Below, in pieces: positions 54,241 to 63,056 of a stretch of 64,000 nucleotides of DNA. The notes beneath the pieces are model-generated. The model had not been told where the DNA came from. It did not search any database and saw only the letters and a list, made by a program, of their open reading frames with translations. Location of the stretch: contig CAYLXA010000013.1 in the NCBI GenBank assembly GCA_964387845.1, forward strand, positions 25,521 through 89,520. The letters are read 5' to 3'. This DNA is from an uncultured bacterium. GTDB lineage: Bacteria > Omnitrophota > Omnitrophia > Omnitrophales > Abzuiibacteriaceae. The position numbers and the translations under genes were made by a program. Within the stretch, counting starts at the first letter, position 1. Each line of letters opens with the position of its first letter.

Positions 54241-54750
54241 ATGAAAACTCAATGTTCCAAAAAGGGCTTTACGTTGGCCGAAGTTTTGATCACGATCGCG
54301 CTGCTCGGCATTCTTGCTGCAATGGTGTTGCCACGTTTGACGGGGCAAACTGATAAGGCTAGAGCTGCTGAGGCGATTAATATGCTTGGTGCTATCCGAC
54401 AGGCCGAGATTTCTTACCGAAATGGTCCTGCAGGTGAATATCTTGGAATTCTTAACACAACTGACGGCGGCTGGTCTTGTGCGGATCCGGCTCTTTGGGC
54501 ACGTTTGGGCATTGGTGATCCAAATGGAAATCCCAATTCTTTATTTGGGTATTGTATAGACTGGACAGATGATCCTACTAGCGGTCCGGTTATATTTCGA
54601 GCAGTTGCGAGACGACTTAGTGCTGCAAATGCTGACGATGAAGTGATTACTTTAAATCAAGATGGAATTTGGGATGGTAATAGTCCCCATGTTCCTCAAA
54701 ATGAAGGTGGAGCAGATTGCGAGTCTAACTGGTTTCCTTGTTGGCCGTAG
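54241..54750 (+). CDS. Type IV pilin or pseudopilin (prepilin-type N-terminus)
   Basis: It has a class III signal, KKGF-TLAEVLITIALLGILAA, with F+1 and E+5 and a variable C-terminal domain. The start is set at MKTQ. Confidence 0.75.
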   Translation: MKTQCSKKGFTLAEVLITIALLGILAAMVLPRLTGQTDKARAAEAINMLGAIRQAEISYRNGPAGEYLGILNTTDGGWSCADPALWARLGIGDPNGNPNSLFGYCIDWTDDPTSGPVIFRAVARRLSAANADDEVITLNQDGIWDGNSPHVPQNEGGADCESNWFPCWP

Positions 54751-54759
54751 GATTTAAAT

Positions 54760-60375: not shown

Positions 60376-63056
60376 TGAAGTGGCTCCAGCGGTTTAAACT
60401 GATAAAAGGAATCACGTTATTCGAATTGATCGTTGTTATTGCGATCATTGGAATATTGGCAGCCGTCGGTGTTCCAAGTTTTGAAAGCATGATCAAAAAG
60501 CGTGAGCTCAAGAATGCAAGCGAAAATCTTTTCTCCATTCTAAACGGAATTCGTTCATGGGAACTCCAGCATCCTCAATCTTTATTCCCCGGAGAAGTGT
60601 ACGATGCTGATTTTTGGGTAAATAATTGGAAGTCTAATTTAACGTCCCAATATCTCAGCAAAATGAACGACAAAACACCCGATAACCCTCTTTTACTTAC
60701 ATTGGAAAGTGGGGTTCGGAAAATAGAGTACTATTTAGCGCCTCATGCGGCTGATTTTCTCCACATTTATGGTACATATTCGGTAAATAATAATCCGCAG
60801 GGTTTTGTTTATCTAACTTATGACGGAATTTTGAGTACCGAATCAGTCGTGCCAGGCACATGTCCTAACGGAGTGTTGGGCCCTGGAGAGCAATGCGAAA
60901 ATGATTTTCATTGCGCTGGTGTAGCGACCTGTAACACAGCGACATGCACTTGTTCGGGCGGGGGCGGTTCATGCGGAGATGGGACTGTCAATAACGGTGA
61001 ACAATGCGATGATAACAACACTATATCCGGCGATGGCTGCAGCTCAACGTGTCGAGATGAAGTCTGCGGTGACGGCATTAAACAGGATGACGAGGGTTGC
61101 GATGGCAACCCAAATCAGTGTCCTCCGATTGCGGGTAATAATGTAGTTTGTACAACTGCCTGCGAATGTTCTTATAGTCCGATTGGAAATGCTTTGTGCG
61201 GTGACGGAACTGTTACTGCTCCGGAATTGTGTGACCGTGGAAATTTGCCGATTATTCCAGCTATTGGATGTCCTGTTGGATCGGTTTGTGCTGGCGATTG
61301 CAAGTCTTGTTGTGGTGACGGTATTTTAACGCCATCTAGTTCAGAAGTTTGCGATATCGGTGTCGGGTGCGGAGCAATCACGGGTTCTGTTTGTAATTCA
61401 ACTTGTTCTGCCTGCGAATGTCCGTCGGGAGAAAGTGAGAATCCGCCGGGTTCAGGCCATTGTTGTCCGACGGGAACCTCATGGAACGGATCAAGCTGCA
61501 GCGCTTGCGGGAATAACGCGCTGGATGTTGGCGAGATTTGCGACGAGTCGGCTTTTCCCAACGGCTGTCCGTTTGATCAGGAGTGTAACGCTGCTTGTAA
61601 TGCATGTTCCTGTCCGGCCGGAACTGCTTTGAGCAATTATCATTGCTGCCCGGTCGGTTCAGTGTGGAACGGCCATGACTGTACGACTTGCGGTGACGGC
61701 GTAAAATCCGGCTGGGAACAGTGCGATCCAACCGATCCTGATGCAGCAGATCAAACGTGTACGCCTTACACGCCGTCCGGCCTACCGGGTTGCGGCATGA
61801 TGGGAAAATCCGAACGTTACTCTTTGCAAAGCGGTTCAGTTGAAGAAATTTTATCCGAACAAATGTCTTATTATAACCTTTCTAAATCAGGCCCGGCACC
61901 GATGGCAGACCCTTGTCCGCCTGGTTCGCCTCAACCGAGATATTGTCAGGAGTGCTTATGTGTTCCCGGATCAGGCGGAATTTGCGGCAATAATCTTCTG
62001 GAAACAGGCGAGCAATGCGACGACGGCAATACAACTTCAGGTGATGGCTGCAGTGCAAGCTGTCAGCAGGAATATTGTGGTGACTCAGTCATTCAACCTG
62101 GTTTAAATGAGCAGTGCGACAATAGCGCTTGTGCCCCCAATCCGAACCCTCCTCCGCTTGGGACACCTCTATTTTGTATGAACTGTCAATGCCAGTGTGT
62201 GCCATTTTTGTGTAGTCAGGGCAGTGTTCCTAATATGGAAACTTGTTCGTGCGATCCGATGCCTTGTGATAGTACATCCGATTGCGATGATCAAAATGAA
62301 TGTACGGATGATAGCTGTGATTTAACCGCGGGGCATTGCGTATTTGATGGCACCGGCATGAACGGTCTGGCTTGCGATGATGGAGATATCTGCACAACAG
62401 GTGAACAATGCGACGCCGGAATTTGTATCGGCGGAACAGCCACATCGTGCGATGACGGAAATCCGTGCACAACCGACGTATGTGATTATGATACCGGCTG
62501 TATAAATCAAAATTTACCGAATGGAACTTCCTGCGCTGACGCAGATTTGTGTGATGGCGATGAAGTTTGTGATAACTTTGGCGTTTGTCAACCCGGAGTG
62601 TCGGTGGTCTGCACAGCGCTGGATCAATGTCATGACGTTGGCGTTTGCGATCCGGGAACCGGTGTCTGCTCGAATCCTATCAAAGCCGACGGCACAAGTT
62701 GTGTTCATCCGAATTCAAGCCAAACGTGGGATCATGACGGTAATCCCGGCACTCCTGAAATCCCGGTGTATGATAACGAATGTTATCTCCAGGAATGTAT
62801 CGCTGGCGCATGTCAATTTACAACCGGTTTATATGATTCAAATGAATGTGATTATGATGGACTACCGCAAAGCGGCTGTAACTATGAAACATGCAGCGCT
62901 GGATGGTGTATTCCGGATACTCCCGGCTGTCCCGGCGGCAGTTGCGTAGATTGTCCCAACCAAATCGGATCGCCAATTGCAGCATGCGGCGGCTCTCTTT
63001 GCGCTCAGTCTTCTGCCGATCCGCTTGACCCCAGTTTGGGGTATTGCTGCGCATAA
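60375..63056 (+). CDS. Giant type IV pilin (893 aa). A prepilin N-terminus is fused to a ~740-aa Cys-rich repeat domain made of Myxococcus-type and Dictyostelium/EGF-like repeats.
   Basis: KGI-TLFELIVVIAIIGILAA with E+5. Myxococcus-type units: CGDGTVNNGEQCDDNNTISGDGCSSTC at ~60969..61075 and CGNNLLETGEQCDDGNTTSGDGCSASC at ~61982..62088. A Dictyostelium/EGF-like unit CDDGNPCTTDVCD is also present. This gene is last in the operon. Confidence 0.7.
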   Translation: MKWLQRFKLIKGITLFELIVVIAIIGILAAVGVPSFESMIKKRELKNASENLFSILNGIRSWELQHPQSLFPGEVYDADFWVNNWKSNLTSQYLSKMNDKTPDNPLLLTLESGVRKIEYYLAPHAADFLHIYGTYSVNNNPQGFVYLTYDGILSTESVVPGTCPNGVLGPGEQCENDFHCAGVATCNTATCTCSGGGGSCGDGTVNNGEQCDDNNTISGDGCSSTCRDEVCGDGIKQDDEGCDGNPNQCPPIAGNNVVCTTACECSYSPIGNALCGDGTVTAPELCDRGNLPIIPAIGCPVGSVCAGDCKSCCGDGILTPSSSEVCDIGVGCGAITGSVCNSTCSACECPSGESENPPGSGHCCPTGTSWNGSSCSACGNNALDVGEICDESAFPNGCPFDQECNAACNACSCPAGTALSNYHCCPVGSVWNGHDCTTCGDGVKSGWEQCDPTDPDAADQTCTPYTPSGLPGCGMMGKSERYSLQSGSVEEILSEQMSYYNLSKSGPAPMADPCPPGSPQPRYCQECLCVPGSGGICGNNLLETGEQCDDGNTTSGDGCSASCQQEYCGDSVIQPGLNEQCDNSACAPNPNPPPLGTPLFCMNCQCQCVPFLCSQGSVPNMETCSCDPMPCDSTSDCDDQNECTDDSCDLTAGHCVFDGTGMNGLACDDGDICTTGEQCDAGICIGGTATSCDDGNPCTTDVCDYDTGCINQNLPNGTSCADADLCDGDEVCDNFGVCQPGVSVVCTALDQCHDVGVCDPGTGVCSNPIKADGTSCVHPNSSQTWDHDGNPGTPEIPVYDNECYLQECIAGACQFTTGLYDSNECDYDGLPQSGCNYETCSAGWCIPDTPGCPGGSCVDCPNQIGSPIAACGGSLCAQSSADPLDPSLGYCCA

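What the first reader, a model, noticed from the sequence alone, without database searches (positions are those of the whole stretch)
54241..63056. Type IV pilus-like operon ending in two giant components, a 1268-aa PilX-N protein and an 893-aa Cys-rich pilin
Six consecutive genes follow a fimU-pilV-pilW-pilX-pilY1-pilE-like layout: two pilin-like genes, two minor pilins, a very large PilX-N-anchored protein, and a final pilin.

The last pilin is not a ~150-aa protein. It has a canonical prepilin leader (G/ITLFE, with E at +5) fused to a ~740-aa disulfide-rich module made of Myxococcus-type CGDG..ExCDDGN..SGDGCS..C repeats and Dictyostelium/EGF-like CDDGNxCTxDxC repeats. A pilin this size would be displayed along or at the tip of a fibre, which would make the fibre itself an adhesin.

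No assembly ATPase, secretin or prepilin peptidase lies in the window, so the machinery is encoded elsewhere.

The giant 3628-aa protein at 20371..31257 is built from the same rare repeat types. The two loci may form one surface-attachment system, possibly for epibiotic or predatory contact.
Basis: partly seen in the sequence, partly recalled or inferred. Interest (0 to 1): 0.85.

Follow-up and report, generated by a model that had tools for sequence, protein, structure and literature searches.

The report
Giant-tipped type IV pilin cassette, Omnitrophota
This is a real six-gene pilin operon from an uncultured Omnitrophota bacterium in which two of the four subunits that normally form the tip of a type IV filament are enormous, a 1268-aa cap and an 893-aa cysteine-rich pilin. 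It is a fast-evolving variant of a known design and probably serves surface or host attachment.

Summary
Six co-directional genes (54235-63056) exist. Five carry class III (prepilin) signals with Glu+5. The 893-aa protein is a pilin module fused to about 730 aa holding 100 cysteines (myxo_disulf_rpt, DUF4215, Dicty_CTDC).

It is not a chimera: independent assemblies from four other organisms carry the same cassette, with a terminal pilin of 324, ~415, 633, 813 or 894 aa. More distant relatives have an ordinary 171-aa pilin there.

The 1268-aa protein gets no Pfam hit (neither PilX_N nor PilY1). It belongs to an unannotated family whose named members are all Omnitrophota. The family has a GspK/PilX-type leader (G|FAL, no Glu5), weak collinear hits to cyanobacterial HpsA, and a modelled pilin fold followed by strand rungs with weak solenoid-adhesin matches.

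In distant relatives the cassette lies directly after secretin, GspE-type ATPase and GspF-type platform genes.

Best reading: two major-type pilins plus a four-gene priming/tip complex (PilV-, PilW-, PilX- and FimU/GspH-like). Its cap and adapter are giant adhesin-like proteins, assembled by machinery encoded elsewhere.

The cassette diverges far faster than its flanks (26-51% versus 83-95% identity). This is a new variant of a known kind, of moderate interest.

The parts
54235..54750 (+). p1, 171-aa major-type type IV pilin (leader MIMKTQCSKKG|FTLAE)
   Evidence: N_methyl 1.2e-7, TIGR02532 2.4e-7, N-terminal match to GspG 5.9e-10. It is homologous (E 1e-24 to 2e-13) to the pilins encoded directly after the ATPase and platform genes in L006 and L007.
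54760..55230 (+). p2, 156-aa major-type type IV pilin (MQNSNKG|FTLTE)
   Evidence: N_methyl 1e-8; N-terminal match to PilA_Myxo 2.3e-10; sub-threshold ComP_DUS hit 4e-5. Orthologues in L001, L002, L004 and L008 are 43-51% identical.
55423..55944 (+). p3, 173-aa minor pilin in the PilV/GspI position (G|FTLLE). The role is inferred from position.
   Evidence: N_methyl 2.5e-5. Orthologues occupy the same position in L001, L002, L004 and L008 at 24-42% identity. The weak best distant match is L007_8722, the first gene of the core four there. The globular part matches no solved structure by sequence.
55910..56572 (+). p4, 220-aa minor pilin in the PilW/GspJ position (G|LSLIE). It overlaps p3 by 35 nt and p5 by 4 nt. 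The role is inferred from position.
   Evidence: N_methyl 1.9e-4, TIGR02532 1.1e-3, weak N-terminal PpdB-type hit PRK10557. It has positional orthologues in all related loci, including L006_9211 and L007_9261.
56569..60375 (+). p5, 1268-aa PilX/GspK-like cap subunit. Leader MKLIHRRESG|YALAV has no Glu5. The model shows a long alpha1 helix (~11-73), a three-strand sheet (148-196), then short strand rungs (205-276) and further domains, including a Cys-rich stretch around 1040-1120 that is modelled with low confidence.
60375..60860 (+). p6 pilin module (residues 1-162): leader MKWLQRFKLIKG|ITLFE, alpha1 helix, Cys-free head
   Evidence: TIGR02532 2.5e-3; N-terminal matches to PpdD 5.2e-8, GspG 5.5e-6 and GspH 1.6e-5. 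A profile of five orthologous modules hits alpha1 of solved T4a pilins and GspG at 7e-10 to 9e-4. The low-confidence model shows a helix followed by four strands. The module is homologous to the ordinary pilins that follow the giant gene in L006 (171 aa, complete) and L007 (cut at 116 aa).
60861..63056 (+). p6 disulfide-rich extension (residues 163-893, 100 Cys): myxo_disulf_rpt/DUF4215 repeats, an internally duplicated CPxG...HCCP unit, and Dicty_CTDC repeats
   Evidence: TIGR02232 1.5e-20, DUF4215 8e-7, Dicty_CTDC 2.9e-6. Nearly all Cys are conserved in the 894-aa orthologue P0007. Only residues ~630-700 are modelled with confidence.
20371..31257 (-). 3628-aa surface protein that shares the repeat types (context only; no link shown)
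   Evidence: Beta_helix, TSP3_bac, DUF4215 and Dicty_CTDC hits. It has an N-terminal membrane anchor that is not pilin-like. Its Cys-rich blocks at ~2000-2200 and 2800-3400 are 30-41% identical to p6, 65% over one 31-residue repeat.

Best explanation
The locus is the pilin cassette of a type IV filament of an Omnitrophota bacterium, most likely a type IVa-like pilus.

The genes p1 and p2 encode major-type pilins. The genes p3 to p6 encode the four-subunit priming/tip complex that nucleates filament assembly, equivalent to PilV-PilW-PilX-FimU in pili and GspI-J-K-H in type II secretion.

The cap subunit p5 lacks Glu5, so it can only sit at the very top. It has grown to 1268 aa through domains added to a pilin fold, apparently including a beta-solenoid. 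In this it resembles cyanobacterial PilX/HpsA and Thermus ComZ, and it probably takes over the plug and adhesin role that PilY1 has elsewhere.

The last subunit p6 is an ordinary ~170-aa pilin in distant relatives. In this lineage it has accreted a disulfide-rich repeat stalk of 170 to 740 aa. It is anchored through its pilin module just under the cap and would project from the tip.

A prepilin peptidase, ATPase, platform and secretin encoded elsewhere in the genome would process and assemble these proteins.

Shown here: the class III signals, the conserved cassette, homology of p5 to a leader-type family without Glu5, linkage of that family to secretin, ATPase and platform genes, and rapid divergence. 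Inferred: which subunit plays which structural role, tip location, adhesion as the function, and a pilus rather than a pseudopilus.
For: Class III signals with Glu5 occur in p1-p4 and p6, while p5 has G|YALAV.

The same cassette is found in L001, L002/L003, L004, L008 and, in part, L005.

In the distant relatives L007 and L006 the core four genes (155-175, 247-258 and 1316-1330 aa, then a pilin that is 171 aa in L006 and is cut by the contig end in L007) lie downstream of T2SSE (with MshEN), T2SSF and three or four pilins homologous to p1 and p2. In L007 a secretin gene precedes these.

For the p5 family:
- The leader is (R/K)G|FAL without Glu5.
- There are weak GspK N-terminal hits and collinear HpsA hits.
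- The AF2 model shows alpha1, a sheet and short strand rungs.

The literature supports the pattern. PilX lacks Glu5 and caps the tip. Cyanobacterial PilX and HpsA carry an ice-binding-like beta-solenoid proposed to replace PilY1 (bioRxiv 10.64898/2026.02.12.705559). Modular pilins are widespread and probably tip-exposed (PMC8179133). Type IVa pilus genes are found in most Omnitrophota genomes (PMC10066038).

Divergence is rapid: flanking proteins are 83-95% identical against 26-51% for the cassette, and a second pair of loci shows the same trend.
Against: p5 itself hits no curated model. The HpsA and GspK links come only through family members, at 10-26 bits in the members scanned one by one, far below the curated cut-offs of 400 and 130 bits.

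The p6 model is too poor to class its head as FimU/GspH-like. The roles of p3 and p4 rest on order and size only.

No machinery lies in the window, and the rest of the genome could not be searched. Nothing distinguishes an extended pilus from a type II secretion pseudopilus. No expression or localisation data exist.
Confidence: 0.6

Rival explanations
1. The cassette belongs to a type II secretion-like system. In that case p1 is the major pseudopilin (GspG-like), p2-p5 follow the gspH-I-J-K order, and p6 is an accessory modular pseudopilin. The short periplasmic pseudopilus would push substrates, possibly the large repeat proteins of this phylum, through the secretin. The giant cap and the Cys-rich subunit would then act in substrate or secretin contact rather than in adhesion.
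For: The best NCBIfam hit of p1 is GspG, and the gene order matches G-H-I-J-K. The machinery genes next to distant relatives are annotated T2SSE, T2SSF and Secretin. Preprints report type II/type IV secretion-like loci with class III signal genes next to giant genes in Omnitrophota (10.1101/2023.11.21.568195; 10.64898/2026.06.07.730766).
Against: Pfam T2SSE, T2SSF and Secretin do not separate pili from type II secretion. A cap of 1268 aa and a 730-aa disulfide-rich stalk seem hard to fit into a periplasmic piston, a point inferred rather than tested. In L006 and L007 the core four end with a normal pilin placed after the K-like gene, so the four-gene unit is I-J-K-H-like and p2 is not part of it. 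A published survey classed the Omnitrophota systems as type IVa pili (PMC10066038).
Confidence: 0.2
2. p5 would be a PilY1-like non-pilin adhesin carried by the minor pilins p1-p4. p6 would be a PilE-like pilin polymerised along the fibre, so that the whole fibre is coated with Cys-rich modules.
For: The layout is collinear with fimU-pilVWXY1-pilE. The alpha1 of p6 resembles that of major pilins more than that of any other class.
Against: p5 has a class III-like leader without Glu5 and shows no PilY1/PilC beta-propeller at any threshold. p1 and p2 are homologous to the pilins beside the ATPase and platform genes in relatives, not to the core four. A head domain carrying 730 extra residues on every subunit looks incompatible with helical packing. 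Modular pilins are thought to be tip-exposed (PMC8179133).
Confidence: 0.1
3. The class III signals serve only as a membrane anchor and processing signal. p5 and p6 would be cell-surface or periplasmic proteins held in the inner membrane or in a short stub, as in the archaeal bindosome, without a true filament.
For: No machinery lies in the window. The cassette sits between housekeeping genes.
Against: The complete, conserved set of major-type pilins plus four core subunits, and its physical linkage to secretin, ATPase and platform genes in relatives, argue for assembly into a filament.
Confidence: 0.05
4. The 893-aa ORF is an assembly or gene-calling chimera of a pilin and an unrelated Cys-rich ORF.
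For: None found.
Against: An 894-aa orthologue (49% identity over 91% of the length) sits on an independent Logan contig with the same neighbours. Fused pilin plus Cys-rich ORFs of 324, ~415, 633 and 813 aa occur in other assemblies. The ORF is uninterrupted and its start overlaps the stop of p5.
Confidence: 0.01

Closest known systems
Core minor-pilin priming/tip complex of type IV filaments (P. aeruginosa FimU-PilV-PilW-PilX with PilY1 and PilE; type II secretion GspH-I-J-K)
   Same: It is a set of adjacent small genes with class III signals. One subunit lacks Glu5 and would cap the filament. In relatives the set lies next to ATPase, platform and secretin genes.
   Different: There is no PilY1. 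The cap is 1268 aa rather than about 200-330 aa. The last subunit carries a 730-aa disulfide-rich extension. The cassette is detached from the machinery and sits between housekeeping genes and an rRNA operon.
Cyanobacterial PilX-EPS/HpsA (NF038301) and Thermus ComZ: minor pilins with an inserted beta-solenoid
   Different: Scores are far below the HpsA cut-off (at most about 26 bits against 400 in the members scanned one by one), and p5 itself does not hit. The organism belongs to a different phylum. No hps glycosyltransferase genes lie nearby. p5 also contains an extra Cys-rich segment.
Modular type IV pilins (S. sanguinis PilB with vWA, PilC with a lectin module; ETEC CofB)
   Same: [quoted passage not shown] Tip exposure and ligand binding are expected.
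   Different: The module is a long array of DUF4215/myxo_disulf_rpt and Dicty_CTDC repeats. These identifiers are absent from the text held for the 2021 survey's supplementary files, and no paper in the library mentions DUF4215 together with pilins. At 893 aa it exceeds the 860-aa extreme cited in that survey. The module length varies from 0 to about 740 aa among relatives.
Caldicellulosiruptor tapirins (beta-helix adhesins linked to type IV pili)
   Different: Tapirins are not pilins, and no sequence similarity was detected.

Membership tests
Type IV pilin / class III signal peptide (Pfam N_methyl PF07963, TIGR02532) | Short basic leader ending in Gly, then a ~20-residue hydrophobic helix with Glu at +5 | tested here: met
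   p1, p2, p3, p4 and p6 reach TIGR02532's cut-off. p1-p4 also reach Pfam's. p6 is below Pfam's cut-off (18.4 against 21.2 bits) but above TIGR02532's (17.6 against 16.3). The motifs were read directly. A profile of p6 orthologues hits alpha1 of solved pilins.
Type IV pilin / class III signal peptide | The same feature, tested for p5 (1268 aa) | tested here: inconclusive
   No HMM hit. The sequence shows RRESG|YALAVVMFVLAL with Val at +5. This is the Glu5-less variant typical of GspK and PilX, and it is conserved across the family.
   No Pfam family at E<=10 for the whole protein or for its first 144 residues, apart from one chance-level hit to an unrelated family (E 0.14). None of the 30 family members hit it at E<=0.01.
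GspK (NF037980) | A score above the curated cut-off (130 bits), with the GspK alpha-domain inserted in the pilin fold | tested here: not met
HpsA / PilX-EPS (NF038301) | A score above 400 bits across the 1503-position model | tested here: not met
   19 of 30 family members hit weakly (best E 4.4e-7). In those scanned one by one the scores are 13-26 bits, at model positions ~250-333 or, in one member, ~1356-1444. p5 has no hit. This suggests distant homology at most.
PilY1/PilC tip adhesin | C-terminal PilY1/PilC beta-propeller domain and a Sec-type signal | tested here: not met
   No Pfam hit at E<=10. The N-terminus is of the class III type. The model shows no propeller among the confident parts.
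Modular pilin (as defined in PMC8179133) | An N-terminal pilin module plus at least one domain not specific to pilus biology | tested here: met
   p6 has TIGR02532 at the N-terminus, followed by TIGR02232, DUF4215 and Dicty_CTDC. The definition was read.
Complete type IV pilus or type II secretion system | Assembly ATPase, platform protein, prepilin peptidase and secretin in the same genome | not testable with these tools
   None is found in the 64-kb window among the ORFs scanned. The source genome is not in the searchable collections. ATPase and platform genes sit next to the cassette in the distant relatives L006 and L007, with a secretin gene as well in L007.
Verru_Chthon cassette (TIGR02596 and partners) | Matches to the cassette proteins A-D above the cut-offs | tested here: not met
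   Only N-terminal helix matches to protein D were found, at 14-21 bits against a cut-off of 70. No Verru_Chthon model was hit by p5 (E<=0.1) or by any p5 family member (E<=0.01).

The most novel reading that the evidence does not exclude
The giant cap and the Cys-rich adapter together form the host- or prey-recognition device of ultra-small Omnitrophota. On this reading the four tip genes evolve under diversifying selection in an arms race. That would explain why they are only 26-50% identical between organisms whose neighbouring genes are 83-95% identical. It would also explain the stepwise growth of the terminal pilin from a 171-aa pilin to about 890 aa by accretion of disulfide-rich repeats drawn from the same pool as the cell's giant surface proteins. 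The cassette would then predict partner specificity in an uncultured phylum.
Probability: 0.25. Interest if true: 0.7.

Novelty: new variant of a known kind. Interest (0 to 1): 0.5.

Why it matters
Omnitrophota are abundant, uncultured, mostly ultra-small bacteria suspected to live attached to other cells. Type IV pili are the leading candidate for that contact, but their tip proteins have not been described in the papers found here.

This locus defines a family of about 1000-1300-aa PilX/GspK-like caps that no curated model covers. Its named members are all from Omnitrophota. The locus also shows a pilin acquiring a long disulfide-rich stalk, with intermediate lengths preserved in relatives. 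And it shows that the tip genes are the fastest-evolving part of an otherwise conserved neighbourhood.

This extends to a third lineage the idea that a solenoid-bearing PilX can replace PilY1, so far proposed for cyanobacteria and Thermus. It also gives concrete targets (p5 and p6) for metaproteomics, imaging and partner prediction.

Tried and rejected
- The word-indexed homologue search with p5 returned only p5 itself, both as a single sequence and as an 8-sequence profile. The exhaustive phmmer search was needed.
- Exact look-ups of window proteins gave no contig context.
- The genome-contig scan did not return the source genome, so pilB, pilC, pilD and pilQ could not be searched for.
- Foldseek of the p5 model against the PDB gave nothing below E 0.08. 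The afdb50 library was unavailable.
- The p5 family profile matched no PDB sequence.
- The AF2 model of p6 was too poor (pLDDT 46) for a fold search. Its head could therefore not be classed as FimU/GspH-like or PilE-like. Sequences from the loci were not accepted into that alignment.
- Profiles of p3 and p4 hit only pilin alpha1.
- Rejected readings: assembly chimera, PilY1 identity for p5, and Verru_Chthon cassette membership.
- The identifiers IPR011936, PF13948, IPR001673 and PF00526 did not occur in the text held for the supplementary files of the modular-pilin survey. No paper in the library mentions DUF4215 together with pilins.
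Full report
**Observation.** They are close-packed or overlapping, apart from a 192-bp gap between p2 and p3. Their coordinates are 54235-54750 (p1, 171 aa), 54760-55230 (p2, 156), 55423-55944 (p3, 173), 55910-56572 (p4, 220), 56569-60375 (p5, 1268) and 60375-63056 (p6, 893).

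Pfam N_methyl and/or TIGR02532 hit p1, p2, p3, p4 and p6. Their leaders read G|FTLAE, G|FTLTE, G|FTLLE, G|LSLIE and G|ITLFE.

In p6, residues 1-162 contain no cysteine and residues 163-893 contain 100. The protein hits TIGR02232 myxo_disulf_rpt (1.5e-20), DUF4215 (8e-7) and Dicty_CTDC (2.9e-6).

The window ORFs that were scanned are housekeeping or metabolic genes. They include nuo genes, trehalose synthesis genes, a Na/H exchanger, CitMHS, AtpB, sulfite reductase, ThiF, ThiC, NadA, IspG, two MqnC/E-like radical SAM genes and a Fic-domain gene. The ORFs next to the cassette look like an ABC-F ATPase, QueF and GreA on reading their translations. None is a pilus ATPase, platform protein, secretin or peptidase. 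The small ORFs and the putative nuoL/M/N were not scanned.

A 16S rRNA gene starts at 63438.

The 3628-aa protein at 20371-31257 carries DUF4215 and Dicty_CTDC blocks that are 30-41% identical to those of p6, 65% over one 31-residue repeat. It has an ordinary N-terminal membrane anchor.

**Organism and related loci.** All six proteins are singletons at 90% identity. An 894-aa orthologue of p6 (P0007, 49% identity over 91% of the length) lies on an independent contig, L001. That contig carries the same upstream genes, whose products are 49, 42, 38 and 39% identical to p2-p5.

Scans with a p5 family alignment found three further loci:
- L002 (identical to L003), from the MAG Candidatus Omnitrophica bacterium CG11, also named Ca. 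Abzuiibacterium crystallinum.
- L004, on a 525-kb metagenome contig.
- L005.

A look-up of another family member gave L008.

Every complete locus has the same order: two pilins, two minor pilins, a protein of 1228-1287 aa, and then a pilin fused to Cys-rich repeats. That terminal pilin is 324 aa in L002, about 415 in L005, 633 in L008, 813 in L004 and 894 in L001. The chimera hypothesis is therefore refuted.

L004 shares the window's neighbourhood on both sides, including the rRNA operon downstream. In L002 and L008 the cassette lies between nuoN and a CitMHS/F-ATPase block.

**The 1268-aa protein.** It has no Pfam or NCBIfam hit, even at E<=10. This means no PilX_N and no PilY1 propeller.

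An exhaustive phmmer search of 1.8 billion representatives gave 75 hits. Seven are near full-length homologues. About 25 more are proteins of 950-1330 aa that share three conserved stretches. The named members are all from Omnitrophota and are all annotated 'hypothetical'.

The family N-terminus is (R/K)G|FAL followed by a hydrophobic helix, with no Glu at +5. This is the hallmark of GspK and PilX, the subunit that caps a type IV filament.

Scanning 30 members against NCBIfam gave weak hits to HpsA in 19 and to the GspK N-terminus in 5. In the members scanned one by one, the HpsA matches lay in the corresponding N- or C-terminal region of the model. All scores were far below the curated cut-offs.

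An AF2 model of residues 1-1200 (pLDDT 65, pTM 0.65) shows a helix at 11-73, three long strands at 148-196, then many three-residue strands at short intervals.

A 2026 preprint describes exactly this architecture for cyanobacterial PilX and HpsA: a pilin fold with an ice-binding-like solenoid, no Glu5, proposed to replace PilY1. I read p5 as a functional analogue and probably a distant homologue. It is not a member of the HpsA or GspK families.

**Link to assembly machinery.** Distant family members sit in informative loci.

- In L007 the order is: secretin, a T2SSE ATPase with an MshEN domain, T2SSF, four pilins, two unknown genes, then genes of 175, 247 and 1330 aa, and then a pilin that is cut by the contig end.
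- In L006 the order is: T2SSE, T2SSF, three pilins, three unrelated genes, then genes of 155, 258, 1316 and 171 aa.

The pilins beside the machinery are homologous to p1 and p2 (E 1e-24 to 1e-10). The four-gene unit corresponds by position, and weakly by sequence, to p3-p6.

The gene after the giant in L006 and L007 is an ordinary pilin (RG|VTLLE, RRG|VTLFE). Its helix resembles that of p6.

Three conclusions follow:
- p3-p6 are a conserved four-gene core, matching the canonical four core minor pilins.
- p1 and p2 are major-type pilins.
- The Cys-rich extension of p6 is a lineage-specific addition to an ancestral pilin of about 170 aa.

**The 893-aa pilin.** A profile of five orthologous N-terminal modules hits alpha1 of solved type IVa pilins and GspG (7e-10 to 9e-4). 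The head matches nothing.

The AF2 model is poor (pLDDT 46). It shows a long helix, a second helix and four strands, which is pilin-like topology at low confidence. Only the Dicty_CTDC region at about 630-700 is confident.

Among the 125 best Cys-rich hits, only the orthologue P0007 has a class III N-terminus. The fusion is therefore rare.

It fits the published definition of a modular pilin. The survey that introduced that definition cited 860 aa as its extreme case. The repeat identifiers were not found in the text held for its supplementary files.

**Rate of change.** Between the window and L004 the first 563 nt of 16S are 93.7% identical. The flanking proteins are 83-95% identical: IspG 95, GreA 94, MqnC/E-like 93 and 83, QueF 91.

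The cassette proteins are much less similar: p1 50%, p2 51%, p3 26%, p5 30% and p6 32%. p4 was undetectable by tblastn.

The non-coding rRNA leader just downstream is 84-89% identical between loci.

A second pair, L008 against L002, shows flanks at 46-84% (most at 60-84%) and the core four at 26-35%. The tip genes are the fastest-evolving part of the neighbourhood. Divergence grows with organismal distance, which fits rapid divergence in place better than random replacement.

**Mechanism proposed.** After cleavage by a prepilin peptidase encoded elsewhere, p3 and p4 would pair. p5 would cap them, because without Glu5 it cannot take a subunit above it. p6 would link the complex to the p1/p2 fibre.

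The ATPase and platform would then extrude the filament through the secretin, with the p5 solenoid and the p6 disulfide-rich stalk at its end.

The steps that are shown and those that are inferred are listed under the best explanation.

The main rival is a type II secretion pseudopilus, which these tools cannot exclude.

**Comparison and novelty.** Several elements are already known:
- Core minor-pilin tip complexes.
- Glu5-less caps.
- Solenoid-bearing PilX, HpsA and ComZ.
- Modular pilins.
- The presence of type IVa pili in Omnitrophota.

The new elements are:
- An uncurated cap family, with named members only from Omnitrophota, that has only distant ties to HpsA and GspK.
- A pilin carrying a DUF4215/Dicty_CTDC array whose length ranges from 0 to about 740 aa among relatives.
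- Both of these in one tip complex.
- The marked hypervariability of the cassette.

I rate it a new variant of a known kind, with interest about 0.5.

Noticed in passing
window 63057-63437 (also L001 8203-8499 and L004 16257-16620): A perfect sigma-70 consensus promoter (TTGACA-17-TATAAT, 63103-63131) is followed by an 18-bp hairpin with a T-run (63269-63312), all upstream of the 16S start. The stretch is 84-89% identical across three organisms, and the hairpin shows one compensatory G-C to A-T change. It is probably the rRNA promoter and leader, but a small RNA of about 180 nt is not excluded. Rfam gave only chance-level hits.
   Followed up: partly
window 3686-10021 (- strand) compared with L002 7428-14759 and L008 5380-13506: In L002 and L008 the pilin cassette lies between nuoN and CitMHS. 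In the window the same interval holds trehalose-synthesis genes, DUF5752 and a Na/H exchanger, and the cassette sits 44 kb away next to the rRNA operon. The cassette has therefore moved as a unit between lineages.
   Followed up: partly
window 9860-9913 (-): An nhaA-I riboswitch (44.1 bits against a gathering score of 37) lies upstream of the trehalose and Na/H exchanger gene block.
   Followed up: no
L002 16569-22640; L008 15300-21556; L005 4177-10458: An F-type ATPase operon lies within about 2 kb of the cassette in L002 and L008. The ORFs downstream in L005 have similar sizes. A published survey reports 'symbiotic' type 2/3 F-ATPases co-located with type IVa pilus genes in Omnitrophota (PMC10066038). 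These operons include an OSCP subunit. Whether they are the respiratory or the 'symbiotic' type was not tested.
   Followed up: no
window 53684-54091 (+): A 135-aa ORF immediately upstream of the cassette overlaps the end of the GreA-like gene. It has a hydrophobic N-terminal segment and no Pfam hit. It is 69% identical in L004 at the same position, which is intermediate between the housekeeping flanks and the cassette.
   Followed up: no
window 63045-63053 (C-terminus of p6) and the end of P0007: p6 and its 894-aa orthologue both end in Cys-Cys plus one residue (…GYCCA and …SSCCL). The shorter orthologues do not. The significance is unknown.
   Followed up: no
L007 6234-8607: Two genes without Pfam hits (277 and 519 aa, both with hydrophobic N-termini) lie between the major-type pilins and the core four genes of a locus linked to assembly machinery. 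They may be unrecognised assembly components.
   Followed up: no
window 20371-31257 (-): The 3628-aa protein has an N-terminal membrane anchor, TSP3 repeats, a right-handed beta-helix, a PKD-like domain and two Cys-rich blocks. These blocks carry 91 of its 116 Cys and share repeats with p6. The rest of the protein is almost Cys-free.
   Followed up: partly
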